Origin: a bacterium
Lineage (GTDB): Bacteria > Patescibacteriota > UBA1384 > XYA2-FULL-43-10 > JAKAMI01
Length of the DNA stretch: 64,000 nucleotides
Assembly (NCBI GenBank): GCA_021812945.1
Contig: JAKAMI010000002.1
Span: forward strand, 1,047-65,046
Direction of reading: 5' to 3'
Positions 4,888 to 56,282 of the stretch are shown piece after piece. The notes under the pieces were generated by a model. The model had not been told where the DNA came from, did not search any database, and saw only the letters and a program-made list of their open reading frames with translations. Both the position numbers and the translations under genes were made by a program. The first letter of the stretch is position 1, and each line of letters begins with the position of its first letter.

Positions 4888-7377
4888 ATGAAGAAAATTA
4901 TTTCAAAATCGTGGGAACCGGAAAAGTACGAGAAAAAGCTCTACTCTACTTGGGAATCGAAAGGTTATTTCAAACCGGAAATCAATCCGGAGGGTGAGCC
5001 ATACTCGATCATCATGCCGCCGCCAAACGCCAACGGCTCCCTGCACCTGGGGCATGCGGTTTTCGTGACTCTCGAGGACATTATGACCCGCTATGCCCGG
5101 ATGCAAGGCAAGGCTGCTTTGTGGCTGCCGGGCGCCGACCACGGCGGATTTGAAACTCAGATTGTATTCGAAAAAAAGCTGGAGAAAGAGGGCAAGAGCC
5201 GGTTCGGTATGGATCGTAACGAGCTTTACCGGATGATGTGGGATTTTAGCTTGGAAAATAAATCCGGGATGGAAGATCAGCTGAGAAAATTAGGCGCCAG
5301 CTGTGATTGGGATAGGGAAAAATTCACGCTGGATGAGGATATTGTCAAAATAGTCAACGAGACCTTTGTCAAATTATACAATGACGGACTGGTATATCAG
5401 GATCTACGGCCTGTCAACTGGTGCACCAAACACCAGACCTCGCTTTCCGATCTGGAAGTGAAATACGAGGAACAAACAGATCCACTCTACTTCGTCAAAT
5501 ATCAAATATCAAATATCAAATATCAAAAATATAAATCTAAAATCAAAAATTCAGAATACTTAACGATCGCGACTACAAGGCCGGAAACAATATTCGGTGA
5601 TACCGCAATCGCCGTCAGCCCAAACGATAAACGGTTTGCGGAATTGATCGGGTTAAGCGTGAAGATACCGTTGACCGAGATCGAGATTCCGGTCATTGCC
5701 GACAAAATGGTTGATCCGAAGTTTGGGACCGGCGCGGTTAAGATTACTCCGGCTCATGATCCGAACGACTTTGAAGCCGGCAAGCGCCACAATCTTGAGA
5801 TCAAAGAAGTCATAGATCAATACGGCCGGTTGAACGAAAAAGCCGAACCGTTCGCCGGATTAAAAATCTTCGAAGCCAGACGACAGGTGGTCGAGGCGAT
5901 GAAAGAAAAGGGCATTTTGGAAAAAGTCGACGAAAACTATATTCACACCGTCGGCAAGTGCTACAAATGCGGCGCGGTTATCGAACCGCGAGTCTCAAAA
6001 CAGTGGTATATCGCGGTCAACAAAAAGGGTAAAAAAAGCGGGAAAATATTAGCAAAAGACGCTCTGGAGGCGGTCAAAACCGGCAAGATCAAATTTGTCT
6101 CCGAAAAGTTTGAAAAGATTTTTTATCACTGGCTGACCAATATTCGCGACTGGAACATCTCGAGGCAGATCGTTTGGGGCATCAGACTTCCGGTTTGGTA
6201 CCGGAAGTCTAATATCAAAGATCAAATATCAAATGTCAAAAATGCAGATCAAAAATCTCAAAATGAAAATACAAAAAATGCGATAAGCACCCGCGAGGTG
6301 GGCTTTGACTCCTCGGGGGTGGGAGACGGTGAAGTAAGTGAAGTATATGTGGGGATAAATCCACCCGACGGCTGGATTCAGGAAACTGATGTGTTCGATG
6401 CCTGGTTTTCGTCCGGACAATGGCCCTTCGCCGCTTTGAAAGCGCAAAGCGGCTTGAGTTCAAAAGTCCAAAAGTCCAAAAGTCCAGAGTCGTCGGATGA
6501 TTATCAGAAATTTTACCCGACGGCGGTGATGGAAACCGGTTGGGACATCCTCTTTTTCTGGGTGGCGCGGATGATCATGCTGGGACTTTACGAGACCAGT
6601 CAAGTGCCTTTCAAAACCGTTTACCTGCACGGACTGGTGCGCGACAAAGACCGGCAAAAGATGAGTAAATCCAAAGGAAACGTCATTGACCCTCTCGGGG
6701 TGGCTGAGCAGTACGGCACCGATGCAGTGAGGCTGGCTCTGGTTTTCGGTACCTCGGCCGGTAACGACATTGTCATCTCCGAGGAGAAAATCCGCGGCAT
6801 GCGCAACTTCACCAACAAGATCTGGAACGCCTCTCGCTTTGTTCTGATTAACATTTCGGGTGGCGACATCGCGGCCGGAGAGGTCGGGGATATCAGAATA
6901 CAGAATACAGAGTACAGCTCGGAATATTTGACCGAAGCCGATCAACAAGTTCTTAAAGTTCATAAAGTTATAAAGTCGAAAGTTATCAAGTATCTTGAGA
7001 ATTATCAGTTTTCCCAGGCGGCTGAGCTTCTTTATGACTTTTTCTGGCACGACTTTTGCGACAGCTATATCGAAGCCAGCAAGCAGCAACTTGCTCCCCC
7101 TCGCGAAAGTACAAAAAAGGACACAAAAGTACAAAATTACAAATCAGAGATTGCCACGTCGCAGACTACTCGCCATGACGGTAACAATGAAACAATGAGA
7201 CAATGGGACAATGAAGTTTCTGAAAACACCAAAAAGGTCTTAATTAAAATTTTATCGGAAACCCTAGCCATGCTTCATCCCTTCATCCCCTTTGTCACCG
7301 AAGCCGTCTGGCAGGAGCTACGCGAAGTCTACTCCGAGCTTAAAAAGTCTATTATGATCTCTACTTGGCCGAAATAA
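4888..7377 (+). CDS. valS: Valine--tRNA ligase (class I aaRS) with several in-frame repeat insertions
   Basis: PPPNANGSLHLGHA (HIGH), KMSKSKGN (KMSKS), WCTKHQTSLSDLEV. Insertions such as KYQISNIKYQKYKSKIKNSEY, ISTREVGFDSSGVGDGE, SSKVQKSKSPESS and PPRESTKKDTKVQNYKSEI...NNETMRQWDNEVSENT match repeats found elsewhere in the window. Confidence 0.8.
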   Translation: MKKIISKSWEPEKYEKKLYSTWESKGYFKPEINPEGEPYSIIMPPPNANGSLHLGHAVFVTLEDIMTRYARMQGKAALWLPGADHGGFETQIVFEKKLEKEGKSRFGMDRNELYRMMWDFSLENKSGMEDQLRKLGASCDWDREKFTLDEDIVKIVNETFVKLYNDGLVYQDLRPVNWCTKHQTSLSDLEVKYEEQTDPLYFVKYQISNIKYQKYKSKIKNSEYLTIATTRPETIFGDTAIAVSPNDKRFAELIGLSVKIPLTEIEIPVIADKMVDPKFGTGAVKITPAHDPNDFEAGKRHNLEIKEVIDQYGRLNEKAEPFAGLKIFEARRQVVEAMKEKGILEKVDENYIHTVGKCYKCGAVIEPRVSKQWYIAVNKKGKKSGKILAKDALEAVKTGKIKFVSEKFEKIFYHWLTNIRDWNISRQIVWGIRLPVWYRKSNIKDQISNVKNADQKSQNENTKNAISTREVGFDSSGVGDGEVSEVYVGINPPDGWIQETDVFDAWFSSGQWPFAALKAQSGLSSKVQKSKSPESSDDYQKFYPTAVMETGWDILFFWVARMIMLGLYETSQVPFKTVYLHGLVRDKDRQKMSKSKGNVIDPLGVAEQYGTDAVRLALVFGTSAGNDIVISEEKIRGMRNFTNKIWNASRFVLINISGGDIAAGEVGDIRIQNTEYSSEYLTEADQQVLKVHKVIKSKVIKYLENYQFSQAAELLYDFFWHDFCDSYIEASKQQLAPPRESTKKDTKVQNYKSEIATSQTTRHDGNNETMRQWDNEVSENTKKVLIKILSETLAMLHPFIPFVTEAVWQELREVYSELKKSIMISTWPK

Positions 7378-11436: not shown

Positions 11437-12456
11437 TTAACGCTTTTCCAAAACCTCGCCCAGGGCTTCCTGCCAGGGGCGCATGGTGAGGCCGTATTTA
11501 TTCAACTTGGCTTTGGTGAGGTAGGAGTAGGCCGGGCGTTTGGCGGGGGTGGGGTACTCGGCGGTGGCGATAGGTTTGAGACCTATTTTAACCTTCGACT
11601 GTTTAAAAATTTCCTTGGCAAAATCATACCAAGAAGCTTCGCCCTCGCCGGTGGCGTGGTAGATACCGTAGGGAAGAGGGGCATTGCTTGATTGTTTCAT
11701 CCTGCTCCGCTCTTCTGGAGCTATGAGGGACACGGTTGCTTCATTGTTGTCATCCTGAACTTGTTTCAGGATCTCTGCGTTTGAATTTTGGGACCCTGAA
11801 ACAAGTTCAGGATAACGGTTTCGGAAGATAATTTCAGCAATCACCCCAACCAGGTCGCCGGTGTAGGTGGGGGAGCCGATTTGGTCGCTGACGACCGAGA
11901 TTGAATCGCGTTCTTTGGCCAGTCTCAGCATCGTCTCAACGAAATTCGAGCCAGGATGACCCTGTGGCAACTCGCCGTAAAGCCAGGCGGTGCGTATAAT
12001 ATAATACTTGTCGCAGACTGCCTGAATCGCTTTTTCGCCTTCCAACTTGGTTTGGCCGTAGAAGTTGACCGGATCGGTCGGATCGTCCTCATTTATTGGG
12101 ACGTTACCGGTACCCGGGAAGACGTAATCGGTCGAAATATACAACAACGTCGTATCTTTTTCGGCGGCGATTTCAGCCAGGTTTTTGGTTCCGACGGCAT
12201 TCACTTTATAGCAAAGTTCCCGACCCTCACCCTCGGCCTTGTCGACCTGGGTATAAGCGGCGGCGTGAATAATGAAGTCGGGCTTTTCTCTTGACAAAAC
12301 CCGCTCAATCATCGTTTTGTCGGTAATATCCATCTCCTCGGAGTCAGTGAGTATTAGTTGGTAGTCAGTCGTCGGTTGTCGGTTGTCAGGGACCTGAAGT
12401 CGTTCGATCAATTTGTTCCCGAGCTGGCCCTTGGCGCCGGTGATTAGAATTTTCAT
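11437..12456 (-). CDS. rfbD: dTDP-4-dehydrorhamnose reductase (RmlD) carrying two in-frame repeat insertions
   Basis: MKILITGAKGQLG Rossmann start at the ATG 12456, with an SD supplied by the upstream palindromic element. Inserts are VPDNRQPTTDYQL (ggttgtc repeats) and a roughly 100 nt double gtcatcctgaacttgtttcaggat palindrome encoding [23 protein letters not shown]. Confidence 0.8.
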   Translation of the reverse strand: MKILITGAKGQLGNKLIERLQVPDNRQPTTDYQLILTDSEEMDITDKTMIERVLSREKPDFIIHAAAYTQVDKAEGEGRELCYKVNAVGTKNLAEIAAEKDTTLLYISTDYVFPGTGNVPINEDDPTDPVNFYGQTKLEGEKAIQAVCDKYYIIRTAWLYGELPQGHPGSNFVETMLRLAKERDSISVVSDQIGSPTYTGDLVGVIAEIIFRNRYPELVSGSQNSNAEILKQVQDDNNEATVSLIAPEERSRMKQSSNAPLPYGIYHATGEGEASWYDFAKEIFKQSKVKIGLKPIATAEYPTPAKRPAYSYLTKAKLNKYGLTMRPWQEALGEVLEKR

Positions 12457-20148: not shown

Positions 20149-20236
20149 CCCCTCGCAAATCTACAAATTTTACAAAAATACAAATTGCACGTCGCGCGTT
20201 ATTTGTACTTTTGCTAGATTTGTAGATTCGCGAAGG
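20149..20236. repeat. Family-A palindromic element, copy 4, immediately upstream of ugd (provides its aaggag SD)
   Basis: cccctcgcaaatctacaaattttacaaaaatacaaat...atttgtacttttgctagatttgtagattcgcgaaggag. Confidence 0.7.
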
Positions 20237-20252
20237 AGAGAGGAGTTTTGTC

Positions 20253-27306: not shown

Positions 27307-27319
27307 TTGGAGACCAGAC

Positions 27320-27585: not shown

Positions 27586-27602
27586 AAAGCTCTCTTAAAA
27601 CA

Positions 27603-29716: not shown

Positions 29717-29856
29717 GGGCGGTTTACACCCCAATCCAAAAAACCCTTGACTAATTTCTGTCATGCTGAATTTATTTCAGCATCTTAAGACAAGTGCGTA
29801 ACATTTTGGGATTCTGAAACAAGTTCAGAATGACGAAAAGAAAAGTTTCCGGAATA

Positions 29857-31953: not shown

Positions 31954-31972
31954 AAGCCAGATTAGTCTAATG

Positions 31973-36364: not shown

Positions 36365-38935
36365 CTAGTCTTTTGTTACCCTCCAAACCTCTTCCAGACT
36401 GGTAAGACCGTCGAGGGCCTTGTCGATGCCTTCCTGTTTCATAGTCAACATCCCGTCCGCTATGGCGGCCTCGGTGATCTTGGACGAGGTGGCCCGAGCC
36501 AGAAGCAGTTCCTGGATTTTCTGATTGACATCCAAGACTTCGTATATGCCAATACGTCCTTTGTAGCCTGTGCCGTGACAGTTGTCACAACCCTCTCCAC
36601 GGTAAAAAACCAGCTTCTTGCCCTCCCATTTTTTGCGGGCATCCTCCGGCATTTTGGCGATCTCTTTCTTGACTTCCTCGATCTCTTTGTCAGTAACTTT
36701 GAACTCCTTTTTGCAGTCTTTGCAGATTTTGCGAGCCAATCTTTGGGCGATAACAGTATTGAGCGATGAAGTAATCAGAAACGGTTCCACTCCCATATCG
36801 ATCAGACGAGGACCGGCGCCGGCAGAATCATTTGTGTGTAATGTCGACAGTACGACATGACCGGTCAAGGCGGCGTTTACCGCCATTTCAGCGGTGTCCC
36901 GGTCGCGAATCTCTCCGATCATCACCACATCGGGATCCTGGCGGAGGATGCTGCGCAGGCCATTGGCAAAAGTATAGTTGATATCAGGATTGACTTGACT
37001 CTGATTGATGCCCGGCATCTGATACTCGATCGGGTCCTCCAGCGTCACGATATTGACCGCGACGTCGAGCAGGCGGTCGATGATGGCGTAAAGCGTGGTT
37101 GTTTTGCCGCTTCCGGTAGGACCGGTGACCAGAGTCATGCCGTGGCTTTTGTGAATACTGTTTTCCACCACGTCAAAACCGCGTCCCCGCAGGCCAAGGT
37201 CTTTGAGGGAGAGAATACCGGTCGATTTGTCCAGGATTCTCATCACAATCTTTTCGCCGAAAGCGGTCGGCATGGTTGAGACTCGAAAGTCGACTTTGCG
37301 GTTGTCGATCATCATCTGAATACGCCCATCCTGAGGTAGGCGCGATTCGTCGATCTTGATTCCCGAAAGAATTTTGATCCTCGAGGTGACCGAAGCCTGG
37401 ACCTCTTTAGGGATGGTCACTTTTTTCTGCAGAACACCATCCTCGCGGAAGCGAACATCCAAACCGTTTTCCGTCGGTTCGATGTGAATGTCCGAAGCCA
37501 GTTCGCGCACGCCTCTTTTGATTAGAGAAGTGACAATCCGCGAGACGGGAGCGTCCTCGGTAATTTTCTCGATCTTTTTCTCGGTAATCTCTCTTTGCTC
37601 TTTGCCGTCTTTGGCCTCGTCTTCGCTTTGGCTGATTGCCTCCGAAACTTCCGCCTCGACACCGGAGTATTGATCCAGAATCCGGTTAAGATCGGTTTGC
37701 ACCGTCAGTTTGGGAATGACTTCCCGCCCCGTTTGTTTTTTGATAAGCTCGACGGTTTCCAGGTCCTCCGGATCAATCATAGCCACCGTGAGCACGCCGT
37801 CGTTATCGGCGACCGGAACTACCTGATATTGGCGGGCGATTTTTTCGGGCAGTAAAGATAAGATTTTTTTATCGACGGTGGTCTTGGAGAGGTCGATGAA
37901 CTGCACTCCGGCGGCTCCGGCGTAGGGATCGCCGGCCGAGCTTTTTGGAGAAATCTCCGGATTGTCTCTTAGCGCTTGTATTTCCGATGGAGTTATCTCA
38001 TCCGGCGAGACGTTGGAAAGGTTGGTTTTCTCAGGTTGAGCCGCAGGCTGGCCCTCGACGGCGGACGAGAGGATATCGTCTTTGGTTTTTTTAACGAAAT
38101 CTTCAAAACTTATCCGAGGGCGATTTTGGGATTTGGTAATCTCGCCGATCTCATTCTCGGTCAGACTGGCCGGTTTTTCTAAATCGGCATCCGGTTTCTT
38201 GGCTTCGTTAAGCTCGGCTACCGCTACGTTGTCCGGTTGAGCGTCGGATTCGGGCGTGTCTTTGATCGGGAGCGATTGTTCCGCCAACTCTTTAAAGCTG
38301 ATGGGGGCCTGAACTTTCTCGTTGTTAACTTTCTCGTTGTTCTCGGCGAGACGATCCGCGGATTTATGATCTTCCGCTTTCAACTTCAAATCACCGGCAT
38401 CAAAAGAGGCAACCTCTCCTTCTGGTTTCGAAGGCTCAGAGTGATGAATCTTGACCTGTTCCACGGCTTTTGCCGGCTCAAGGTTACGAACAAAAATCTC
38501 ATGGTCTTTTTTGTCCGGCTCGCGGCGGTTGTTCGAGGTTGTCTTCGCTTCCGGCTCGGGAGCGTTTTTGTTGACATGTTTTTTGACCTGCGGGCTGGGG
38601 TGCCACTTGATGACATTGGTTGGAAGCATCACAATCTTATGGCCGCGGCCCCTGGGGTCCCGGATGGTTTTAGAGGGATATTTGTGAGTCAAAAAAGATC
38701 CGAAATTGGAAAAAATCAGTTTCCCCCCGTCTCTCAAAGTCTGCCCAAGACCGTCAATGAAAGCTTTGACGATCTTTTTGGCTTTTTTTTGCGAAATCCT
38801 TTCAGCTCTGGCTAAAGCTTTGATCAGGTCTTCAGTATTCAATTTGCCCCTCCCGACCGCAAGGCGGTCGCCCCCTCGCGAAATTACGAATAAAACACAA
38901 AAATACAAAAGCGCGAATAATTCAATCAACCCCAA
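36365..38935 (-). CDS. pilB: Type IV pilus assembly ATPase PilB (GspE family) fused to an N-terminal HU/IHF-like DNA-binding domain
   Basis: The C-terminal 570 aa carry the GSPII_E N-domain, Walker A VTGPTGSGKTTTLYA and the tetracysteine CDNCHGTGYKGRIGIY. Residues about 33-125 (NTEDLIKALARAERISQKKAKKIVKAFIDGLGQTLRDGGKLIFSNFGSFLTHKYPSKTIRDPRGRGHKIVMLPTNVIKWHPSPQVKK) align across their whole length with HU (HBsu). The likely true start is an internal TTG near 38842 preceded by GGGAGGGG. The frame is continuous with no stop between the HU and PilB parts. Confidence 0.7.
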   Translation of the reverse strand: MGLIELFALLYFCVLFVISRGGDRLAVGRGKLNTEDLIKALARAERISQKKAKKIVKAFIDGLGQTLRDGGKLIFSNFGSFLTHKYPSKTIRDPRGRGHKIVMLPTNVIKWHPSPQVKKHVNKNAPEPEAKTTSNNRREPDKKDHEIFVRNLEPAKAVEQVKIHHSEPSKPEGEVASFDAGDLKLKAEDHKSADRLAENNEKVNNEKVQAPISFKELAEQSLPIKDTPESDAQPDNVAVAELNEAKKPDADLEKPASLTENEIGEITKSQNRPRISFEDFVKKTKDDILSSAVEGQPAAQPEKTNLSNVSPDEITPSEIQALRDNPEISPKSSAGDPYAGAAGVQFIDLSKTTVDKKILSLLPEKIARQYQVVPVADNDGVLTVAMIDPEDLETVELIKKQTGREVIPKLTVQTDLNRILDQYSGVEAEVSEAISQSEDEAKDGKEQREITEKKIEKITEDAPVSRIVTSLIKRGVRELASDIHIEPTENGLDVRFREDGVLQKKVTIPKEVQASVTSRIKILSGIKIDESRLPQDGRIQMMIDNRKVDFRVSTMPTAFGEKIVMRILDKSTGILSLKDLGLRGRGFDVVENSIHKSHGMTLVTGPTGSGKTTTLYAIIDRLLDVAVNIVTLEDPIEYQMPGINQSQVNPDINYTFANGLRSILRQDPDVVMIGEIRDRDTAEMAVNAALTGHVVLSTLHTNDSAGAGPRLIDMGVEPFLITSSLNTVIAQRLARKICKDCKKEFKVTDKEIEEVKKEIAKMPEDARKKWEGKKLVFYRGEGCDNCHGTGYKGRIGIYEVLDVNQKIQELLLARATSSKITEAAIADGMLTMKQEGIDKALDGLTSLEEVWRVTKD

Positions 38936-39338: not shown

Positions 39339-40892
39339 ATGAAGCAGGCTCTATATCAAAAATACCGGCCGAAAGATTTTTCGGCAGCCATCGGCCAAGA
39401 GAAAATCGTCCAGACGCTCAAAAACGCCTTAAAAAGCGGCCGCACCGGTCACGCTTATCTTTTTGCCGGCCAGCGAGGAACCGGCAAAACAACTTATGCC
39501 CGAATTTTGGCTCAATCGCTCAACTGTCAAAAACCCAAAGACGGGAATGGGCCGTGTTTCGATTGTCAGTTTTGCCAAGCCGCCGGAAAGGGTCAAGCCA
39601 TCGACATTATCGAGATAGACGCCGCCTCCAACCGCGGTATTGACGAGATTCGCGATTTGCGCGAGAAGATCAGATTTGCCCCGACTCTGGGGAAATATAA
39701 GGTTTACATCATCGACGAAGTCCATATGCTGACCAAAGAAGCCTTCAATGCGCTTCTAAAAACCCTTGAGGAGCCGCCGCCGCACGTTGTCTTCATCATG
39801 GCAACGACCGAAGCGCACAAGCTGCCGGCCACTATTCTTTCCCGAGTCCAGCGGTTCGACTTTGGCCGGATTCCGATCGCCGACATTACCAAGAATTTAC
39901 GCCTGATTGCCGATAAAGAGAAAATTGAAATCGACGACGAGGCTTTGTTGATCATCGCCGGCAAAGCCGACGGCAGTCACCGAGACGCTATTTCGCTCTT
40001 GGAACAGATTAAATCGTACGCTACCAAAATCTCTGCCAAGGAGGTGGGGGAGGTTTTGGGTTTGGTTGGAAATGATCTGATTTATCGGCTCCTAGGTTCA
40101 ATGGTTGAGGCTGATTTGAAGCAAGCGCTGGTTCAAATCGAGAGCTACTACGAGGGCGGTTTTGATTTGAGCCAGCTGGCCTTGTCGCTGGTGGAGACAA
40201 TCCGAAAAGCGATGCTCTTAAAATCGGGGGTCATTGAAAAATCGGACTTGACTAAGGAAGAGGCTGAGGGCATAGCCAAGTTGGAAAAATTATCTGCCGA
40301 CCGACTGATAGTCGGTATTGAACAATTATCTTCCGCAGGCAGGGAAACCAAGATTAGCTCGATTCAGAGTCTGCCGCTGGAGCTGGCAGTGTCGAGAATC
40401 GTCAAGGCATGGGATATGAACGATTCCCCTACGAAATTACAAATAGATCAACGAAAGCACAAAAGTACTAATGATACAAATTCCCATCAACCCACCTCGC
40501 GGGAGTCAAAGCCCACCCCCGAGGTGAATTCGGACATCAACAATAAAACAATGAAGCAATCGGACAATGAAACTGACGCAACTTTAGATGATAGGACTTG
40601 GAAAGAGATTCTGGATCGGATAAAGTTGCAGAACCATACCTTGCAAGCGCTGCTTCGGGATATTAAACCCCTCGGGATTGTAGAAGGAAGACTCAAGCTT
40701 TGCGCTAAGTTCAAATTTCACAAGGACAAGGTTTCCGAGATTGGAAATCGCCAGTTAGTTGAAAAGATAATTACCGAGGTGACGGGACAAAAACTGCCAA
40801 TCTTCTGCGAGCTGGCCGATGAAACCGCCGGCAAGCGAAAAGGGCTGAAAGAAGATGAGCTGTTGCAAGTAGCGGAGGAAGTGTTTTCATAA
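39339..40892 (+). CDS. dnaX: DNA polymerase III subunit gamma/tau with a composite repeat insertion
   Basis: YRPKDFSAAIGQEKIV...LFAGQRGTGKTT...CQFCQAAGKG...IDEVHML. Insert DQRKHKSTNDTNSHQPTSRESKPTPEVNSDINNKTMKQSDNETD is three concatenated repeat modules. Confidence 0.85.
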   Translation: MKQALYQKYRPKDFSAAIGQEKIVQTLKNALKSGRTGHAYLFAGQRGTGKTTYARILAQSLNCQKPKDGNGPCFDCQFCQAAGKGQAIDIIEIDAASNRGIDEIRDLREKIRFAPTLGKYKVYIIDEVHMLTKEAFNALLKTLEEPPPHVVFIMATTEAHKLPATILSRVQRFDFGRIPIADITKNLRLIADKEKIEIDDEALLIIAGKADGSHRDAISLLEQIKSYATKISAKEVGEVLGLVGNDLIYRLLGSMVEADLKQALVQIESYYEGGFDLSQLALSLVETIRKAMLLKSGVIEKSDLTKEEAEGIAKLEKLSADRLIVGIEQLSSAGRETKISSIQSLPLELAVSRIVKAWDMNDSPTKLQIDQRKHKSTNDTNSHQPTSRESKPTPEVNSDINNKTMKQSDNETDATLDDRTWKEILDRIKLQNHTLQALLRDIKPLGIVEGRLKLCAKFKFHKDKVSEIGNRQLVEKIITEVTGQKLPIFCELADETAGKRKGLKEDELLQVAEEVFS

Positions 40893-42980: not shown

Positions 42981-43522
42981 TAGGAGAGATGGGGATATCG
43001 GTTTGCCCACCCGATAAACACTAAGCATTTTATAAATCGTTAAAAGAAGTGGTTTGTAAATAGTTTAGTCCCCAGCTCTCCCATCGAAATAAGTTAAAAG
43101 TTGAAAGTTATAAAGTAACGAGTAAACTAATAACAGAAACAAAAAAACAGAAATTCAGAAAATCGAAACAAACAGAAAATCAGAAAAGAGCACATTGACA
43201 AAAGGATGGGAAAAAATAGGGAAGTTGCAAAAAGCAACCTTAGTGTAAAATACAATTTTATATTAGGGATGCCACAAAGCTAGAGATCCTTCGCCGATTC
43301 TTTCAGAATCGCTCAGGATTTCGCTAAAAGCGAAACTTTGCGACACCCCTAATGGGCGTAAGCTTTACGACCGGGTCATAATTTAAAATTATATTATCCC
43401 GACAAGTCGATTACCAGTTTGCGCCCAAACCAAGAAACATCCAGCAATGAGGGTGTTTTTTGGTTTAGAAAATCAAATTGGTCTAATTAGACTAATTGGT
43501 CAAATTGGTCTAATATTCAGGT

Positions 43523-44089
43523 ATGGGTGGTCACCAGGATCTGATAGTCTATCAGCAAGCGGTGCTGATTTTTGATCTCAACGTGCAGTTTTGCCGTCGG
43601 TTTTTGGACCCCATCAAAGATCGTCGAACTATCGAGCAAATGGAGCAAGCGTCTCGCAGTAGCAAGCAGAATATCGTTGAAGGCTCTCTTGGAAAAAGCC
43701 TGAAAATGAACATAAAGTTGACGGGAGTTTCACGGGCGTCGTACGGAGAATTGCTAGAAGACTACAAGGATTTTTTGCGGATACGGAATCTGAAGCTATG
43801 GCCCAAAGAAGATGAAAGAGTTCGGGAAATTCGAAGCATGCGTGTCCAAACCAATAAGGCAAATGAGTCTAATGCGGCCGATTGGTCCAATTGGACAAAT
43901 GATGCGGAAAGATTCGCCAATTTAATGGTAACTTTGATCTCTAAAGAGAACTATCTTTTGGATTGTCTTTTACGGTCTTTGGAAAACAAGTTTGTAACCG
44001 AGGGCGGTTGTGGTGAAAATTTGTTTAAGAAAAGGCTAGAGGAAAGGAATAGGACCAATAGGACAAATTGGTCCAATCGGGTCAATTAG
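43523..44089 (+). CDS. Four-helix-bundle protein (23S rRNA intervening-sequence protein family, TIGR02436/PF05635-like) with C-terminal repeat-derived extension
   Basis: LIVYQQAVLIFDLNVQFCRRF...NIVEGSLGKSLKMNIKLTGVSRASYGELLEDY matches the family. The tail contains ccaattggtc-repeat-encoded NWSNWTND/TNRTNWSNR. Confidence 0.6.
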   Translation: MGGHQDLIVYQQAVLIFDLNVQFCRRFLDPIKDRRTIEQMEQASRSSKQNIVEGSLGKSLKMNIKLTGVSRASYGELLEDYKDFLRIRNLKLWPKEDERVREIRSMRVQTNKANESNAADWSNWTNDAERFANLMVTLISKENYLLDCLLRSLENKFVTEGGCGENLFKKRLEERNRTNRTNWSNRVN

Positions 44090-44111
44090 TCTAATAGGTC
44101 AAATAAGACTA

Positions 44112-46187
44112 ATGGGTATTTTGGAGCAACTTAATCCTGAACAACGTGAAGCTGTGACCACCACCAGTGGTCCAGTTTTAGTGCTCGCGGGTGCAGGCAG
44201 CGGCAAAACTAGAGCGTTGACCTACCGGATTGCTTATCTGATTCAAGAAAAACGGGTTTCACCGTATTCGATACTAGCCGTGACCTTCACTAATAAGGCA
44301 GCGCACGAAATGAGTAACCGGGTTGCCCGCCTGCTCGCGTTTTCGTTGAATAAGACCAATTGGCCAAATGAGTCTAATTTGACCAATAAACTTCCTTGGC
44401 TGGGGACGTTTCACTCCATTTGCGTCAAAATTCTAAGACGCGAAGCCAACCACCTGGGTTACGAGCGCAGCTTCACTATCTACGACGATCAAGACCAGCA
44501 AGCGGTCATCAAAAAGATCTTACGAGATCTGCAGCTCGACCCTAAGAAAACTTCACCATCATCGATATCTTACTTTATCTCCGGGGCCAAAGCTGAACTT
44601 ATGACAGCGGCCGAATATACCAAGTATGCAACTTATGGCTTTCAGAAAATTGTCAGTGAGGTCTATTTCGCTTATGAAAAAGCTCTGAAGCGAGCCGAGG
44701 CAATGGACTTTGACGACCTAATTCTAAACTGCGTGCGCCTATTTCGTGAGTTCCCGGAGCTGTTAGAAAAATATCAGCGTCAGTTTCAATATATTTTAAT
44801 CGACGAGTACCAGGACACCAACCACGCCCAATACGTTTGGGCTAAATTGCTGGCTTCAGACCATCACAATATTTGTGTGGTGGGCGATGATTTTCAGTCG
44901 ATCTATTCTTGGCGCGGGGCGAATTTTCGCAACATTTTAGACTTCGGCAAAGATTATCCGGAAGCTAAAATTATCAAAATGGAGCAGAACTATCGCTCGA
45001 CCAAATCAATTCTGGGTGCGGCGCAGGGGGTGATAGAAAAGAATAAGGATCGAACCGACAAGAAACTTTGGACCGAGAACAAAGAGGGGGTGCCGGTAAC
45101 GGTTTTCGAGGCGGGGAGCGACCGTGACGAAGCGGACTTTGTCACTCGCGAAATTCGCGCTCTGAGAATGAACAGCCTAAATTACTCAGATTTTGCCATT
45201 TTATACCGTACTAATGCTCAGTCGCGGCAGTTTGAGGAGACTTTTATCCGCTACGGCATCCCGTACCAAATTATCGGCGGAGTCAGCTTCTACCAACGGC
45301 GCGAAGTGAAGGATGTCATCGCTTACCTGCGCTACATTCACAATCCGCGAGACCTGGTCTCGTTGGAGCGGATTATAAATGTACCGGCTCGGGGGATTGG
45401 GCCAAAAACAGCGGAGCTGCTTTTGGAAGTCAAAAGTCAAAAGTCAAAAGTCAAAAGTATGGAAGAGCTACCAGATAAGGTCAGAAAGTTTGAGGAGATG
45501 ATTACCAGTTTGCGTGAATACTATCAGAAACATTCCATAGTCGAGCTAATAGATACCTTGGCTCGAATGACGGGGTATAAGGATTATCTGCTGGACGGGA
45601 CGCCGGAGGGAGAGGCGAGGTGGGAAAACATTGAGGAGCTGATGAACATTGCGGCGGCACAAGCCGCCCCCTACGAAAATACAAAAGAAGGCACGAAAGT
45701 ACGAAAGTACAAATCTGGAGACGAACCGGTACCTCAGAATACCATTCCAGCCTCTCGCTCCGTCATTCCTGCGAAAGCAGGAATCCAGACTGGATCCCAG
45801 ATCGAGTCTGGGATGACGAGTAGCCGCGAGACGGATAATCAACTCGAGGAGTTTCTTGAGCGGGTTAGTTTGTATCAAGACTCGGAAAAATTGGACAAAG
45901 ACCGCGATGCGGTGGTTTTAATGACTTTGCACGCAGCCAAGGGCTTGGAATACGATACGGTTTTCATCGCCGGTCTGGAGGAAGGTATTTTCCCGCACTC
46001 CAGAAGCTTGACCGAAAAAGATCAGTTGGAGGAGGAGAGACGGCTTTGTTACGTCGGCATGACCCGGGCACAGAAAAGGCTATACCTGCTATATGCCCGC
46101 CAGCGGCTTTTTCATGGCAACATAATGGCGTCTCTCCCCTCAAGATTTTTGGGGGAAATACCAGCAGAGTTCACAGACATTCTGTGA
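44112..46187 (+). CDS. uvrD: ATP-dependent DNA helicase UvrD/PcrA with repeat insertions
   Basis: LNPEQREAV, AGAGSGKTRALTYR, TFTNKAAHEM, ILIDEYQDTN, VGDDFQSIYSWRGA. Inserts NKTNWPNESNLTNKLP, EVKSQKSKVKSMEE, YENTKEGTKVRKYKSGDEPVPQNTIPASRSVIPAKAGIQTGSQIESGMTSS. Confidence 0.85.
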   Translation: MGILEQLNPEQREAVTTTSGPVLVLAGAGSGKTRALTYRIAYLIQEKRVSPYSILAVTFTNKAAHEMSNRVARLLAFSLNKTNWPNESNLTNKLPWLGTFHSICVKILRREANHLGYERSFTIYDDQDQQAVIKKILRDLQLDPKKTSPSSISYFISGAKAELMTAAEYTKYATYGFQKIVSEVYFAYEKALKRAEAMDFDDLILNCVRLFREFPELLEKYQRQFQYILIDEYQDTNHAQYVWAKLLASDHHNICVVGDDFQSIYSWRGANFRNILDFGKDYPEAKIIKMEQNYRSTKSILGAAQGVIEKNKDRTDKKLWTENKEGVPVTVFEAGSDRDEADFVTREIRALRMNSLNYSDFAILYRTNAQSRQFEETFIRYGIPYQIIGGVSFYQRREVKDVIAYLRYIHNPRDLVSLERIINVPARGIGPKTAELLLEVKSQKSKVKSMEELPDKVRKFEEMITSLREYYQKHSIVELIDTLARMTGYKDYLLDGTPEGEARWENIEELMNIAAAQAAPYENTKEGTKVRKYKSGDEPVPQNTIPASRSVIPAKAGIQTGSQIESGMTSSRETDNQLEEFLERVSLYQDSEKLDKDRDAVVLMTLHAAKGLEYDTVFIAGLEEGIFPHSRSLTEKDQLEEERRLCYVGMTRAQKRLYLLYARQRLFHGNIMASLPSRFLGEIPAEFTDIL

Positions 46188-47392: not shown

Positions 47393-48499
47393 ATGACGGA
47401 AAAAGAGGTAGGGATAATCAAAATAAAAGTTACTGAAATCAAACAATTTCTGAGCGAAAATCAGACTTGGGCCAAGAAGAGTTTTGGCCAGCATTTTTTG
47501 GTTGACGAGAATGTTTTAAGCAAAATTGTGGCCACGGCCGAATTATCAAAATCAGATCGAGTCTTGGAGATCGGTCCGGGCTTGGGGGTCTTAACCGATC
47601 AACTAATTGAACGTGCAGGTGAAGTTGTAGCTATCGAAGCAGACCGGTTCTTAGCCAGTTGTCTGGCTAAGAAATATCAAACCCTACAACACGTCATTCC
47701 AGTGAAAGCTGGAATCCAGGGATTAGAAAAAACTGGATCCCAGATCAAATCTGGGATGACAGAGAAAGATGACTTTGGACTTTCAACTTTCAACTTTCAA
47801 CTAATTGAAGGTGACGCTTTGAAAGTCATCGACAGCCTGGAATTTAAAAGGGGATTTCGATCGAAACCTTATAAAGTGATCGCCAATATTCCATATTCGA
47901 TAACATCAAAATTATTAAGGCTGCTACTGGAAGAATATCAACCAACCTCAATCACTTTTTTGGTGCAAAAAGAGGTGGCGGAGAGGGTTTGCGCCAAGCC
48001 CGGTCGGATGAGCCTTTTATCATTATCCGTCCAATACTTCGGCACCCCGAAGATCATCGCCACCGTTCCGGCCGGAGCTTTCTGGCCACAACCAAAAGTT
48101 GAGTCAGCAATTTTGCACATCAAGTTGACCACGATACACACACCTGCCTGCCGGCAGGCAGGGAAATCAATTCACAGAGAGGACACAGAAAATTTAACCC
48201 TGCCCACCTCCGAGGAGTCAGAGCCCACCTCGGAGGTGTTTACGGGCAAAAATAATGAAACAATGAAACAATCTAGCAATGAGCTATTCAAACTGGCCAG
48301 AATCGGTTTAGGTTCCAAGCGGAAAATGCTGGCGCACAATTTATCGACCGGCTTAAGTCTTCCGCGGGAAGAAATTGTTGATATAATAAAATCGGTGGGA
48401 CTTAAGGAAACAGTCAGAGCGCAGGAGCTAAGCGTTAAGGAGTGGGAAGAATTATCACGCTCCCTCGCGAATCTACAAATTTGGCAAAAATACAAATAA
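47393..48499 (+). CDS. rsmA: 16S rRNA (adenine1518/1519-N6)-dimethyltransferase RsmA/KsgA with two composite repeat insertions
   Basis: SFGQHFLVDENVL...VLEIGPGLGVLT...IANIPYSITS. Inserts VIPVKAGIQGLEKTGSQIKSGMTEKDDFGLSTFNFQL and HTPACRQAGKSIHREDTENLTLPTSEESEPTSEVFTGKNNETMKQSSNE. Confidence 0.85.
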   Translation: MTEKEVGIIKIKVTEIKQFLSENQTWAKKSFGQHFLVDENVLSKIVATAELSKSDRVLEIGPGLGVLTDQLIERAGEVVAIEADRFLASCLAKKYQTLQHVIPVKAGIQGLEKTGSQIKSGMTEKDDFGLSTFNFQLIEGDALKVIDSLEFKRGFRSKPYKVIANIPYSITSKLLRLLLEEYQPTSITFLVQKEVAERVCAKPGRMSLLSLSVQYFGTPKIIATVPAGAFWPQPKVESAILHIKLTTIHTPACRQAGKSIHREDTENLTLPTSEESEPTSEVFTGKNNETMKQSSNELFKLARIGLGSKRKMLAHNLSTGLSLPREEIVDIIKSVGLKETVRAQELSVKEWEELSRSLANLQIWQKYK

Positions 48500-48548
48500 C
48501 ACTTCGCGTTCAATTTGTATTTTCGTAAGATTTGTAGATTCGCTAAGG
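48461..48548. repeat. Family-A palindromic element, copy 6, spanning the rsmA 3' end and the NRAMP leader
   Basis: tccctcgcgaatctacaaatttggcaaaaatacaaat...atttgtattttcgtaagatttgtagattcgctaagg. Confidence 0.7.
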
Positions 48549-48574
48549 ATATAGAGGTCGCTAAGGAGGGGATT

Positions 48575-53909: not shown

Positions 53910-56282
53910 ATGACCGCTCTCAAACTTGATTCACCCATCCAATACCTAAAAGGTGTGGGGCCGAAGCTGGCTGAGAAATTAAAAAGGCTGGAAATAGAAA
54001 CTCCGGCCGATCTTTTGTACCATCTGCCGCGGACCTACATTGACTACTCGCAAACGGTCCCGATCAAATCCACCCGCATCGGCGATCTTGTCGTTATTAA
54101 AGGAAAAATATCGGATCTCAGCATCAAACGCACGCCGCGGAAATGGATGGCCATCGTCGAGTTTTTGGTATCGGATCATTCAGGCTCGATCAAAGTTGTC
54201 TACTTCAACCAGCCCTACCTCAAAGACACCTTTAAAAACGGCGAGGAACTCTATTTTTACGGTAAAATTAACTATGACTATTCCGGCTCGATTAAGTCTC
54301 TCAACAGTCCGGACTTCAGCCGCGAGCCGAAGATCGTACCCATTTACCCGGAAACAAAAAACGTCAACAGTAAATACCTAAACAAGTTAGTAGTCGGTTG
54401 TCTGTCGTCAGTTGACAGCGCCAGAGAATATTTGCCCGAGGAAATAAAAACTCAAGCTAAGCTGGTGAATATCGAGCAAGCCCTGAGGTTTCTCCACCAA
54501 CCGGCCAAAATGGCCGAGGTTGGGTCGGGGCGCCGGCGCCTAGCCTTTGACGAACTCTATTTAACGGCTCTGCAAACGCAAATTTTTCGACAACAACGTC
54601 GGGAGCAAAAGGCGGTACGGGTCAAGATTGATAACAAAGAGCTGGTAAGTTTTGTCGACCAGTTGCCGTTTAAACTAACCGCTGCCCAAAAAAGGGCGGC
54701 TTGGCAAATCTTGCTTGACCTAAGGGGTCAAACTAAGTCCGGAGTCCAAGAGTCCAAGAGTCCAAGAGGGAAGACTTCCGGACTTCCGGACTTTAGGACT
54801 TTGGACTGGATTCCTCCGATGAATCGGCTGCTCAATGGTGATGTCGGTAGCGGCAAGACGGTGGTGGCGGCTATGGCAGCCTATGCGGTCATAAAGGCCG
54901 GTTACCGAGTCATCGTCATGGCGCCAACCGAAGTATTGGCTTTTCAACATTACAACACCTTTCAAGAAATTTTGGCTAAATACGACATCAGTGTTGGCCT
55001 GGCGACAAGTTCTAGAAAGGAAACATCACTTTCTGTCATTCCTGTGAAAGCAGGAATCCAGACGAAGAAAACTACTGGATCCCGGATCAAGTCCGGGATG
55101 ACGGACAAAAACAATAAAACAATGAAGCAATTGAACCATGTTTTTGAGACATGTGACCTCCTGGTTGGTACCCATGCGGTACTAGAAGATACTTTTAATC
55201 ATGAAAAGGTGGCGCTGGTGGTGGTTGATGAACAACACCGGTTCGGAGTCGAGCAGAGGGCAAAGATACAAAGAATGACAAGCTCCAGGAACGTCATTCC
55301 AGCCCCTCATCCTGTCATTCCAGCGAAAGCTGGAATCCAGAAATCATCAAAAGCCACTGGATCCCGGATCAAGTCCGGGATGACAAATGAGGACAAAGGA
55401 ATCCAAGCTCACTTCCTTTCGATGACCGCCACACCAATACCAAGAACGCTGCAGCTGACGCTTTACGGCGACTTGGATGTTTCGGTCATCGATGAGATGC
55501 CGAAAGGGCGTAAAGAAATCGAGACTAAGGTTTTTGCCGATCGTGATCGTGAAAAAGCTTATGACCTCATTAGGGATCAGGTAAAGTTGGGGAGACAAGT
55601 GTTCATTGTCTGCCCCTTGATCGAGGAAAATCAGGAGCAAGGTGGGCAAAGACAGTCTTTGCAAAAGGAGCAAAGACTGGCTTTACCCGAATTAGATCGG
55701 AAAACAGTGGTAGCGGAACAGAAAAGACTCAAAGAACAGGTATTTCCGGACTTAAAGATTGGGCTAATGCACGGGAAACTCAAGCCCAAGGAGAAAGAAG
55801 TAGTGATGAATGAATTTACCAGTCGCAAACTAGATATATTAGTCAGTACCTCGGTGGTCGAGGTAGGTGTCGATGTGCCGAATGCCAGTGTGATGATGGT
55901 CGAAAATGCCGAAAGATTCGGCCTAGCTCAGTTACACCAGTTCCGCGGCCGGGTCGGTAGGGCGGAGCATCAATCTTACTGTTTATTAATGTCATCCAGC
56001 CCTCGTCCGGAAAACATCAAACGCTTGAAAGCTATGGAAACGCATGCTTCCGGGTTTAAGTTGGCGGAGATTGATTTGGAGCTTCGTGGACCGGGAGTTA
56101 TTTACGGCAAAGAGCAATCGGGCTTCGGTGACTTGAGGCTAGACTGGGTTTCTGATATATTTCTACTAGAGGAAGCGCGTGAAGCGGCCAAGAAAACACT
56201 GACCTTGAATCCGAGTCTGTCGTCCTGGCCGGGACTGCGAGAAAAACTTGGCGAGAAGTTCGGAGAAGCACATTTAGAATAA
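53910..56282 (+). CDS. recG: ATP-dependent DNA helicase RecG with three composite repeat insertions
   Basis: LKGVGPKLAEKL (HhH), wedge domain, GDVGSGKTVVA, DEQHRFGV, helicase motifs. Inserts KSGVQESKSPRGKTSGLPDFRTLDW, SVIPVKAGIQTKKTTGSRIKSGMTDKNNKTMKQLNH and VIPAPHPVIPAKAGIQKSSKATGSRIKSGMTNEDKG. Confidence 0.85.
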   Translation: MTALKLDSPIQYLKGVGPKLAEKLKRLEIETPADLLYHLPRTYIDYSQTVPIKSTRIGDLVVIKGKISDLSIKRTPRKWMAIVEFLVSDHSGSIKVVYFNQPYLKDTFKNGEELYFYGKINYDYSGSIKSLNSPDFSREPKIVPIYPETKNVNSKYLNKLVVGCLSSVDSAREYLPEEIKTQAKLVNIEQALRFLHQPAKMAEVGSGRRRLAFDELYLTALQTQIFRQQRREQKAVRVKIDNKELVSFVDQLPFKLTAAQKRAAWQILLDLRGQTKSGVQESKSPRGKTSGLPDFRTLDWIPPMNRLLNGDVGSGKTVVAAMAAYAVIKAGYRVIVMAPTEVLAFQHYNTFQEILAKYDISVGLATSSRKETSLSVIPVKAGIQTKKTTGSRIKSGMTDKNNKTMKQLNHVFETCDLLVGTHAVLEDTFNHEKVALVVVDEQHRFGVEQRAKIQRMTSSRNVIPAPHPVIPAKAGIQKSSKATGSRIKSGMTNEDKGIQAHFLSMTATPIPRTLQLTLYGDLDVSVIDEMPKGRKEIETKVFADRDREKAYDLIRDQVKLGRQVFIVCPLIEENQEQGGQRQSLQKEQRLALPELDRKTVVAEQKRLKEQVFPDLKIGLMHGKLKPKEKEVVMNEFTSRKLDILVSTSVVEVGVDVPNASVMMVENAERFGLAQLHQFRGRVGRAEHQSYCLLMSSSPRPENIKRLKAMETHASGFKLAEIDLELRGPGVIYGKEQSGFGDLRLDWVSDIFLLEEAREAAKKTLTLNPSLSSWPGLREKLGEKFGEAHLE

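What the first reader, a model, noticed from the sequence alone, without database searches (positions are those of the whole stretch)
40420..40590. Composite insertion in dnaX built from three different repeat modules in series
DQRKHKSTNDTNS (tacaaa module), HQPTSRESKPTPEVNS (family-D palindrome cacctcgcgggagtcaaagcccacccccgaggtg) and INNKTMKQSDNETD (aacaatgaaacaatg module) are concatenated in frame. The same three-module design, with different flanks, occurs in rsmA (48130-48290) and partly in valS (7100-7230) and recG (55034-55135). The repeated co-occurrence and fixed order suggest the modules transpose or recombine as a unit, or that one larger element is nested.
Basis: seen in the sequence. 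Interest (0 to 1): 0.7.

Follow-up and report, generated by a model that had tools for sequence, protein, structure and literature searches.

The report
Mosaic repeat insert forming DnaX linker
The flexible linker of the DNA-polymerase clamp-loader protein DnaX in this uncultured (probably Patescibacteria) bacterium is built from three small selfish DNA repeat modules read in frame, one case of a genome-wide invasion of housekeeping genes that resembles the Rickettsia palindromic elements but is more modular and much denser.

Summary
The dnaX observation is real. Window 40424-40571 consists of three modules. There is a 58-nt A-rich "TACAAA" arm, a 34-nt palindrome (family D, 5 copies with compensatory stem changes), and a 41-nt "AACAATG" octamer arm.

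They are read in the only open frame of six. They encode DnaX residues 361-417, the disordered linker (pLDDT<50) between domain III and the C-terminal domain.

The sites in RsmA, ValRS and RecG are true insertions relative to solved homologues. The "same three-module design" is overstated:
- rsmA shares an 81-nt block (D plus 3' arm) but lacks the TACAAA arm.
- valS shares both arms, but its middle piece is not a hairpin.
- recG shares only the 3' arm, behind a dimer of CGTC-tagged REPs.

No single parent element is recoverable. This is a combinatorial mosaic in which single modules and two-module blocks are copied, nested and replaced.

Relatives support turnover. One dnaX orthologue keeps the 3' arm (19/19 nt) and a partial 5' arm with a different interior. 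A PcrA 87% identical lacks this insert and carries another elsewhere.

About 40 repeat islands lie inside ORFs in 64 kb. Verdict: new variant of a known kind (intragenic REP/RPE-like selfish DNA). The mobilising enzyme is unknown.

The parts
39339..40892 (+). dnaX (DNA polymerase III gamma/tau), 517 aa, host gene
   Evidence: ORF. (homologues). (Pfam: DNA_pol3_delta2 19-176, lid 183-223, domain III 231-363, DnaX_C 412-493).
40424..40481 (+). Module 1: A-rich 5' 'TACAAA' arm (CCCCTACGAAATTACAAAT...GATACAAAT). It encodes SPTKLQIDQRKHKSTNDTN.
   Evidence: Family D12. It is 84% identical over 49 nt to the pcrA copy. It corresponds to the left half of the intergenic TACAAA palindromes (family D1). 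It is read in a different frame from the valS and pcrA copies, so the repeat is a DNA unit and not a protein motif (read from the sequence).
40493..40526 (+). Module 2: palindrome family D (CACCTCGCGGG-AGTCAAAGCCCA-CCCCCGAGGTG), with a stem of about 11 bp and a conserved 12-nt loop
   Evidence: RNA fold -18.4 kcal/mol, z=-4.7. Of 11 stem pairs, 5 show compensatory changes across the 5 copies and 96% of cells are paired.
40531..40571 (+). Module 3: 3' 'AACAATG' octamer arm (CGGACATCAACAATAAAACAATGAAGCAATCGGACAATGAA). It encodes (S)DINNKTMKQSDNE.
   Evidence: It is 87% identical over 39 nt to the recG copy, including shared irregularities. It is always read as N-N-E/K-T-M-K/R-Q, the only open frame on that strand.
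48203..48282 (+). Sister block in rsmA: palindrome D plus spacer plus AACAATG arm. It is preceded at 48143-48162 by the palindrome CCTGCCTGCCGGCAGGCAGG.
   Evidence: 81-nt local alignment with dnaX. (RsmA residues 246-295 are an insertion relative to PDB 6ifs).
7096..7217 (+). Sister composite in valS: 5' TACAAA arm (7096-7144), a non-palindromic middle (7145-7181), and an AACAATG arm (7183-7217)
   Evidence: ValRS residues 736-779 are an insertion relative to PDB 1gax.
55034..55140 (+). Sister composite in recG: a CGTC/TGTC-tagged REP dimer (55034-55103) followed by an AACAATG arm (55102-55140)
   Evidence: RecG residues 379-423 are an insertion relative to PDB 1gm5.
11670..11811 (-). Sister composite in rmlD: REP-type hairpin, heptamers, TGTC-tagged REP, then an AACAATG arm split by a nested fourth module
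   Evidence: RmlD residues 252-298 are an insertion relative to PDB 1vl0.
45666..45818 (+). Sister composite in pcrA/uvrD: 5' TACAAA arm (45666-45714) plus a CGTC REP dimer (45761-45818), with no AACAATG arm
   Evidence: It is absent from the 87%-identical orthologue in L205.
20149..20241 (.). Example of the six intergenic full TACAAA palindromes (arm, loop, reverse-complement arm). The others are at 12462, 14942, 15913, 21550 and 48461.
   Evidence: family D1.. Fold -35.9 kcal/mol, z=-7.6.
6288..6321 (-). Palindrome D copy in reverse orientation inside valS. Further copies lie at 25544-25577 and 25902-25935, both intergenic.

Best explanation
The dnaX segment is a mosaic of three unrelated, non-autonomous DNA repeat modules. 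They are an A-rich tandem-repeat arm, a REP-like palindrome, and a second A-rich octamer arm. Together they occupy, and effectively constitute, the naturally variable interdomain linker of DnaX.

The modules belong to a larger repertoire in this genome. That repertoire comprises several palindrome families, including bona fide CGTC-tagged REPs, and many tandem arrays of 7-9-nt units.

Shown: single modules and contiguous two-module blocks are copied between loci. They insert into one another and are replaced over short evolutionary distances.

Inferred: selection keeps only copies that land in permissive loops or linkers, preserve the frame, lack stop codons, and put the A-rich strand on the sense strand. 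Such copies are translated into hydrophilic, disordered peptide that the host protein tolerates.

Unknown: the copying mechanism. The candidates are a trans-acting transposase acting on the hairpins, or recombination or template switching between repeats.

The insert is best seen as tolerated selfish DNA that doubles as linker material, not as a dedicated functional device of dnaX.
For: Modules are real dispersed repeats:
- Searches give the counts against chance.
- Shared irregular details between distant copies: dnaX and recG 3' arms match at 34 of 39 nt; dnaX and rsmA share an 81-nt block; valS and pcrA 5' arms are about 86% identical (all).
- Palindrome D keeps its pairing through compensatory changes.

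Sites are insertions or linkers:
- Pfam domains flank the composite exactly.
- Every DnaX homologue has an unalignable linker of different length at this position.
- The AlphaFold2 model has pLDDT<50 and no secondary structure for residues 362-413, with well-predicted domains on both sides.
- RsmA, RecG, ValRS, TsaD and RmlD inserts coincide with gaps against solved structures.

Translation constraint:
- Only 1 of 6 frames of the composite is open.
- In 30 of 39 intragenic tandem arrays of 7-9-nt period, A exceeds T on the sense strand.
- The 5' arm is read in different frames in different genes (read).

Turnover and nesting:
- The L084 dnaX retains the identical 19-nt ATGAAGCAATCGGACAATG of the 3' arm, although the surrounding coding DNA is only about 80% identical. 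Its 5' TACAAA arm gives only a 13/14-nt local match. Between the arms it has different and additional modules.
- The L205 dnaX linker holds other modules, and the L207 linker holds none.
- PcrA of L205 (87% identical) lacks the window's insert. At another site it has its own 5' arm plus REP insert.

Precedent: CGTC-tagged REPs, including Rickettsia RPE-4 and RPE-6, are known inside replication, repair and tRNA-synthetase genes (PMC3733652). Eighteen hairpins fitting that definition occur in the window, ten of them in genes.
Against: - No mobilising enzyme was identified. The only transposase in the window is an ISL3-family gene whose terminal repeats are unrelated to the modules.
- No target-site duplications or clean empty sites were found, so transposition as such is not demonstrated.
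- Expression and translation of the insert are inferred from sequence only.
- The identical 19-nt arm segment in two diverged dnaX genes could also reflect selection on that sequence, which would hint at a function.
- Only 64 kb of the genome and a few relatives were examined.
Confidence: 0.65

Rival explanations
1. One composite mobile element (TACAAA arm, palindrome, AACAATG arm) transposes as a unit. The copies in rsmA, valS and recG are decayed or truncated versions of it.
For: - dnaX and valS share both arms in the same order.
- dnaX and rsmA share D plus the 3' arm as one block in the same register.
- The 3' arm, and more weakly the 5' arm, sit at the same places in the dnaX of relative L084.
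- A 5' arm followed by a REP recurs in L205 pcrA.
Against: - The central module differs between dnaX and valS.
- The 5' arm is absent from rsmA, recG and rmlD.
- REP hairpins are followed by the AACAATG arm in only a minority of cases.
- There is no intact intergenic copy in the window.
- The arms are not inverted repeats, and the composite does not fold as a unit (z=-0.67).
- Palindrome D is absent from the relatives' loci and from 700 kb of metagenome loci that carry the AACAATG arm.
Confidence: 0.12
2. The segment is not inserted DNA. It is an ordinary low-complexity DnaX linker that grew in place by replication slippage, and its similarity to other loci is convergent and driven by composition.
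For: - DnaX linkers are variable and low in complexity in all homologues.
- AACAATGA octamer arrays occur in many unrelated metagenome contigs.
- The genome is about 5-10 times richer in tandem arrays of 7-9-nt period than unrelated bacteria.
Against: - Distant loci share irregular, non-periodic details over 39-81 nt at 80-87% identity.
- The palindrome has a conserved 12-nt loop and compensatory stem changes.
- The same modules interrupt structured domains of RsmA, RecG, ValRS, TsaD and RmlD, where homologues have no linker.
Confidence: 0.08
3. The hairpin in the dnaX linker is a recoding signal that yields a short gamma-like DnaX, as the frameshift hairpin does in E. coli dnaX.
For: - A stable GC-rich hairpin (-18.4 kcal/mol) lies just after domain III. 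In E. coli dnaX the gamma frameshift site lies just after domain III (own knowledge).
- Both alternative sense frames contain stop codons within the insert.
Against: - Reading the sequence shows no X XXY YYZ slippery heptamer 5-9 nt upstream of the hairpin. The nearest A-run (CACAAAAGT) is about 32 nt away.
- The same palindrome occurs in rsmA, in reverse orientation in valS, and in intergenic DNA.
- The dnaX linkers of relatives lack it.
Confidence: 0.04
4. The segment is an assembly or binning artefact, or an intervening sequence removed from the RNA or protein (an intron- or intein-like element).
For: Repeat-rich regions are prone to misassembly. The window also carries 23S-rRNA-IVP-like genes and a hammerhead-like motif.
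Against: - Three assemblies (NCBI, Logan, ENA) are identical across the region.
- All host ORFs are intact.
- There are no intron or ribozyme matches in the insert.
- Exactly one open frame of six argues that the insert is translated.
- It is far too short for an intein and has no intein motifs.
Confidence: 0.03

Closest known systems
Rickettsia palindromic elements (RPEs; Ogata et al. 2000/2002, as summarised in PMC10969869 and PMC3733652)
   Same: - Both are small non-coding repeats inserted in frame in unrelated housekeeping genes.
- Both are translated as extra peptide at sites compatible with the fold.
- Several families coexist in a small genome of a host-dependent bacterium.
   Different: - RPE-1-type elements are single palindromic units of about 100-150 bp. 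Here the insert is a mosaic of three unrelated 34-58-nt modules, and only one of them is palindromic.
- The density is much higher here: at least 23 verified insert sites in 7 proteins within 64 kb, against 44 copies, about half of them in ORFs, reported for Rickettsia conorii.
- The host is probably Patescibacteria, not Alphaproteobacteria.
CGTC-tagged REPs (Di Nocera et al. 2013, PMC3733652). This group includes Neisseria dRS3 and Rickettsia RPE-4 and RPE-6.
   Same: - The hairpins in the sister composites (recG, pcrA, rsmA, rmlD) fit the definition exactly: a CGTC or TGTC tag, an 8-9-bp stem starting with AT, a 4-5-nt loop, a CCA tail, and inverted dimers.
- The paper reports such REPs inside replication, repair and tRNA-synthetase genes, and sometimes embedded in other conserved palindromic sequences.
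   Different: - The palindrome in dnaX itself (family D) has no tag, a stem of about 11 bp and a 12-nt loop, so it is not a member.
- The regular association with A-rich tandem arms of 7-8-nt units is not described there.
- That survey covers 8 phyla. I did not check whether Patescibacteria is among them.
BIMEs (bacterial interspersed mosaic elements of E. coli) and the Neisseria mosaic intergenic repeat regions
   Same: Both are combinatorial mosaics. REP-type palindromes are combined with a limited set of other short motifs in recurring but not fixed orders.
   Different: BIMEs are extragenic (own knowledge; mentioned in PMC3733652 Background). Here the mosaics sit inside ORFs and are translated.
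Small dispersed repeats (SDRs) and heptameric tandem repeats of Nostoc (Elhai et al. 2008, Genome Res 18:1484). This is recalled from memory; the paper could not be opened.
   Same: Both involve very small (20-30 nt) hairpin repeats that nest in other repeats, in genomes rich in heptamer tandem arrays.
   Different: As I recall, those elements are essentially intergenic and cyanobacterial. The comparison was not tested here.

Membership tests
CGTC-tagged REP superfamily (PMC3733652) | Unpaired terminal CGTC (or TGTC/CCTC) tag next to the stem | tested here: not met
   For the dnaX palindrome D, the flanks are ...caacc|CACCTCG... and ...GAGGTG|aattc, with no tag on either strand. The feature is met by 18 other hairpins in the window, including those in recG, pcrA, rsmA and rmlD.
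CGTC-tagged REP superfamily (PMC3733652) | Stem of 8-9 bp starting with AT, loop of 4-5 nt, and a 3-nt tail of about CCA | tested here: not met
   Palindrome D has a stem of about 11 bp starting CACC and a 12-nt loop. The sister hairpins meet the feature, for example CGTC-ATTCCTGC-GAAA-GCAGGAAT-CCA at 45761 (against the definition).
Rickettsia palindromic elements (RPE) | In-frame insertion in functional protein genes at positions compatible with the fold | tested here: met
   One open frame of six. The insert lies between Pfam domains. pLDDT is below 50 for residues 362-413, with confident flanking domains. The sister inserts fall in gaps relative to solved structures.
Rickettsia palindromic elements (RPE) | The whole inserted unit is one palindromic repeat family of conserved length and sequence | tested here: not met
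   The composite folds no better than shuffles (z=-0.67). The three modules have independent distributions.
Rickettsia palindromic elements (RPE) | Sequence homology to the RPE-1 to RPE-10 consensus sequences | not tested
The only link is indirect, through the CGTC class to which RPE-4 and RPE-6 are assigned.
MITE (miniature inverted-repeat transposable element) | Terminal inverted repeats and flanking target-site duplication | tested here: not met
   The 5' and 3' arms are not complementary. Inspection of the flanks of the dnaX, valS and rsmA composites showed no convincing duplication. The ISL3 terminal repeats in the window are unrelated.
REPIN/RAYT system | REP doublets in inverted orientation together with a RAYT (IS200/IS605-like Y1 transposase) gene in the genome | tested here: inconclusive
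   Inverted REP doublets are present at 45761-45818, 47692-47761, 55034-55103 and 55313-55385. No Y1 transposase was found among the window ORFs scanned with Pfam. The rest of the genome could not be searched. CGTC REPs are reported to lack a dedicated transposase.
BIME-type mosaic | Recurring combinations of REP palindromes with a small set of other motifs, in extragenic locations | tested here: not met
   The mosaic combinatorics are present. The elements are intragenic and translated, so the extragenic criterion fails.
dnaX programmed frameshift cassette | A slippery heptamer 5-9 nt upstream of a stimulatory hairpin (own knowledge of the E. coli dnaX cassette) | tested here: not met
   No X XXY YYZ motif lies within 10 nt upstream of 40493. 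The nearest A-run is about 32 nt upstream (sequence).

The most novel reading that the evidence does not exclude
These mosaics may represent an undescribed class of modular mini-elements in Patescibacteria-like bacteria. In this reading, REP-type palindromes and tandem arms of 7-8-nt units are generated and mobilised together. For example, the arms might accumulate as serial target duplications, or serve as the preferred landing pads for the hairpins. The elements would then systematically create or replace loops and linkers in essential proteins. A substantial fraction of proteome length in these reduced genomes would be repeat-derived and would turn over rapidly. TsaD here is about 30% insert.
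Probability: 0.2. Interest if true: 0.75.

Novelty: new variant of a known kind. Interest (0 to 1): 0.55.

Why it matters
In-frame selfish repeats are the textbook oddity of Rickettsia. Finding the same phenomenon in an unrelated ultra-small uncultured lineage suggests that repeat invasion of proteins is a general outcome of reduced, host-dependent genomes. Here it is denser, more modular, and partly built from the same CGTC-REP class.

Practical consequences:
- These inserts inflate protein lengths.
- They break homology-based domain calls.
- They seed spurious "conserved peptides" in metagenomic protein catalogues.
- They provide fast-evolving presence/absence markers for strain tracking.

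The data set could also help to address an open question raised by Di Nocera et al.: how CGTC REPs, which lack a known transposase, are copied.

Tried and rejected
- The Elhai 2008 paper on small dispersed repeats could not be opened. That comparison rests on memory.
- Literature searches for Patescibacteria or CPR combined with REP, MITE or in-frame repeats found no description. Absence from the held library is not proof of novelty.
- My perfect-stem hairpin scan upstream of AACAATG arrays in 115 metagenome loci found almost none. The hairpin-then-arm adjacency is therefore a feature of this lineage and not universal.
- ISL3 transposase as mobiliser: its terminal repeats (28390-28413 and 29693-29716) are unrelated to any module, and no 8-bp duplication was seen.
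- Frameshift signal: rejected for lack of a slippery site.
- Single structured RNA spanning the composite: rejected (z=-0.67).
- The valS middle segment as a palindrome: rejected (z=0.2). It resembles the loops of the intergenic TACAAA palindromes and ends in a CGTC-like tag.
- Inspection of the flanks of the composites for target-site duplications showed nothing convincing. The ATGAAC/ATGAAAC resemblance at the dnaX borders is explained by the octamer unit itself.
Full report
**Host and gene**

The window matches contig JAKBYT010000028.1 of MAG GCA_021842745.1. It is 99.98-100% identical to independent Logan and ENA assemblies across the region of interest. The closest named DnaX homologues are from Patescibacteria and Berkelbacteria, so the organism is probably a CPR bacterium. 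That assignment is an inference.

ORF 39339-40892(+) is DnaX. Pfam places DNA_pol3_delta2 at residues 19-176, the ATPase lid at 183-223, domain III at 231-363 and DnaX_C at 412-493.

**The observation in dnaX**

The flagged stretch is made of three modules in one reading frame.
- Module 1 (40424-40481) is an A-rich arm with TACAAA-type units. It belongs to a 49-nt family with copies in valS, in pcrA and in one intergenic site.
- Module 2 (40493-40526) is a 34-nt palindrome, family D.
- Module 3 (40531-40571) is an arm of AACAATGA-type octamers.

Each module is repeated far beyond chance.
- The octamer motif gives 15 matches against 2.6 expected.
- The palindrome gives 4 matches against 0 expected.
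- The TACAAA core occurs at 39 per 100 kb here, against 0.4 per 100 kb in 1.2 Mb of unrelated bacterial loci.

Palindrome D forms a stable hairpin (-18.4 kcal/mol, z=-4.7). Its five copies conserve the 12-nt loop, and 5 of the 11 stem pairs change on both sides while keeping their pairing.

**What the segment is in the protein**

The composite encodes residues 361-417. That is exactly the gap between domain III and the C-terminal domain.
- In an alignment of 15 homologues, every sequence has an unalignable linker of different length at this position.
- In an AlphaFold2 model, residues 362-413 have pLDDT below 50 and no secondary structure, while both flanking domains are confident.
- Only one of the six reading frames of the segment is free of stop codons, and it is the frame in use.

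The segment is therefore translated linker material.

Comparison with solved structures shows that all of them are true insertions.
- RsmA residues 246-295.
- RecG residues 379-423.
- ValRS residues 736-779. The best match is Thermus ValRS 1gax, so the gene name valS is correct.

The architecture differs between sites.
- rsmA shares an 81-nt block with dnaX (palindrome D, spacer, 3' arm) at about 80% identity in the same register. Its upstream part is a different palindrome plus CACAGA repeats.
- valS shares both arms, but its middle piece does not fold (z=0.2).
- recG shares only the 3' arm (34 of 39 nt, including the same irregularities). That arm follows a dimer of hairpins of another family.
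- pcrA has the 5' arm followed by such a dimer and has no 3' arm.
- rmlD has hairpins followed by a 3' arm that is itself split by a fourth module.

All five AACAATG arms lie 0-13 nt downstream of another repeat module. In four of the five cases that module is a stable palindrome. All five arms are read as N-N-E/K-T-M-K/R-Q, the only open frame of that strand. The 5' arm is read in two different frames in different genes, so the repeated unit is DNA and not a peptide motif.

**Identity of the other hairpins**

Eighteen hairpins in the window have four features in common: a CGTC or TGTC tag, an 8-9-bp stem beginning with AT, a 4-5-nt loop, and a CCA-like tail. Several form inverted dimers.

This is the definition of CGTC-tagged REPs given by Di Nocera et al. 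(PMC3733652). That class includes Neisseria dRS3 and Rickettsia RPE-4 and RPE-6. The same paper reports such REPs inside replication, repair and tRNA-synthetase genes, sometimes embedded in other conserved sequences, and notes that they have no known dedicated transposase.

Palindrome D of dnaX does not fit this definition.

**Is there a parent element?**

The intergenic relatives of the 5' arm are six long perfect palindromes (arm, loop, reverse-complement arm; z=-7.6). They sit between genes and do not have the dnaX arrangement.

No intergenic copy of the three-part composite exists in the window. The two arms are not complementary, and the composite as a whole folds no better than shuffles (z=-0.67). 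I saw no terminal inverted repeats or target duplications.

Two-module blocks are clearly copied as units, however.
- D plus the 3' arm is shared by dnaX and rsmA.
- A 3' arm with its nested module is shared by rmlD here and by dnaX of relative L084, over 68 nt at about 82% identity.

**Turnover among relatives**

- The dnaX of L084 is about 80% identical in nucleotides over the conserved part.
  - It contains the identical 19-nt ATGAAGCAATCGGACAATG of the 3' arm at the same position.
  - Its 5' TACAAA arm begins at the same position, but the direct local match is only 13 of 14 nt.
  - It lacks palindrome D, and it has at least three other hairpin or heptamer modules, two of them nested inside the arms.
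- The L205 linker has other modules (heptamers plus a different hairpin). The L207 linker has none.
- PcrA of L205 is 87% identical in amino acids.
  - It lacks the window's 5' arm plus REP-dimer insert, and at that site it carries a different CGTC REP.
  - At another site it has its own 5' arm plus REP plus heptamer insert, where the window has unrelated nonamer repeats.

Palindrome D was not found in the relatives' loci. It was also absent from 700 kb of metagenome loci that carry the AACAATG motif, so it appears to be lineage-specific.

**Scale of the phenomenon**

Tandem arrays with 7-9-nt periods occur at 9.7 per 10 kb. Unrelated bacteria show 0.5-2.8 per 10 kb, and the relatives are also enriched.

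About 40 repeat islands lie inside ORFs in the 64 kb. In 30 of 39 intragenic arrays, A exceeds T on the sense strand.

Insert sites verified against structures or orthologues number at least 23 in seven proteins:
- ValRS, 5 sites.
- RecG, 4 sites.
- RsmA, 2 sites.
- TsaD, 6 sites, adding about 150 extra residues.
- RmlD, 2-3 sites.
- PcrA, 3 sites.
- DnaX, 1 site.

AACAATGA arrays are widespread in environmental contigs. In 24 of 115 distinct loci they lie in long ORFs in the same frame. Elsewhere they often form the two arms of long palindromes around a GC hairpin.

**Interpretation**

The best-supported reading is a combinatorial mosaic of small selfish repeats that colonise permissive loops and linkers and are filtered by selection for frame, absence of stops and a hydrophilic coding strand. 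Modules and sub-blocks are copied, nested and replaced.

The copying mechanism is not shown. The only transposase in the window (ISL3 family, 28394-29611) has unrelated ends.

Rejected or unlikely alternatives are a single three-part transposon, a linker grown in place by slippage, a dnaX recoding signal (there is no slippery site), and an artefact or intervening sequence.

**Comparison with known systems and novelty**

In behaviour this is closest to the Rickettsia palindromic elements and to the intragenic CGTC REPs. In organisation it is closest to BIME-like mosaics. It differs in three respects: the three-module, mostly non-palindromic build; the regular use of A-rich tandem arms; and the density and the host lineage.

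I found no description of this in Patescibacteria in the searchable literature. I rate it a new variant of a known kind, of moderate interest.

Noticed in passing
window 27116-27173 (+): A near-threshold type III hammerhead ribozyme match (RF00008, 41.5 bits against a gathering score of 48.5, E about 6e-8). The full model is matched, with an intact CUGAUGAG...CGAAA core and three helices. It lies in the ORF-poor, GC-rich stretch at about 25.0-27.65 kb.
   Followed up: partly
window 25000-27650: About 2.6 kb contain no convincing gene, and the GC content is 55% against about 47% elsewhere. The stretch holds two palindrome-D copies, CGTC REPs, the hammerhead-like motif, and one copy of a 125-nt direct repeat (22550-22674 and 27464-27588, 86% identical).
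   Followed up: no
window 28390-29716: A complete-looking ISL3-family insertion sequence. The transposase gene is at 28394-29611(-), and 25-nt terminal inverted repeats begin with GGCTCTAT. It is flanked on one side by a REP-type hairpin pair at 29759-29835. No 8-bp target duplication was seen.
   Followed up: partly
window 3381-4856 (+): TsaD is 491 aa, against about 335-345 aa for solved homologues. It has six separate inserts that coincide with tandem-repeat or hairpin islands, so roughly 30% of the protein is repeat-derived.
   Followed up: partly
window 8294-8478 and 10074-10108, 55644-55688, 59018-59055: Another palindrome family (AAAGACAGTCTTC ... GAAGACTGTCTTT). Four copies stand in tandem with a 47-nt period downstream of a PEBP-family gene. 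Single copies lie elsewhere, including one inside recG.
   Followed up: no
window 12462-12554, 14942-15034, 15913-16005, 20149-20241, 21550-21642, 48461-48553: Long AT-rich perfect palindromes with TACAAA/ATTTGTA arms sit in nearly every spacer of the sugar-nucleotide and glycosyltransferase gene cluster and after rsmA. They are candidate terminators or RNA-stability elements (z=-7.6).
   Followed up: no
window 43459-44113, 44350-44378, 31943-31971, 1284-1307: A family of nonamer repeats (AATTGGTCN/AATAGGTCA) surrounds and enters a 23S-rRNA-IVP-like gene (43523-44089). It also enters the 5' part of pcrA, at the very site where relative L205 carries a 5'-arm plus REP insert.
   Followed up: partly
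window 36365-38935 (-) and L205/L207: The type IV pilus ATPase PilB carries an N-terminal HU-like (Bac_DNA_binding) domain in the relatives. Its length varies from 793 to 915 aa between relatives, which suggests repeat-driven length variation there too.
   Followed up: no
window 53562-53659: A 21-nt tandem repeat (GATGCTAGATTTGAGAAAATT, 3.7 copies, 92% matches) lies in the spacer between the VanW-domain gene and recG. It is unrelated to the arrays of 7-9-nt units.
   Followed up: no
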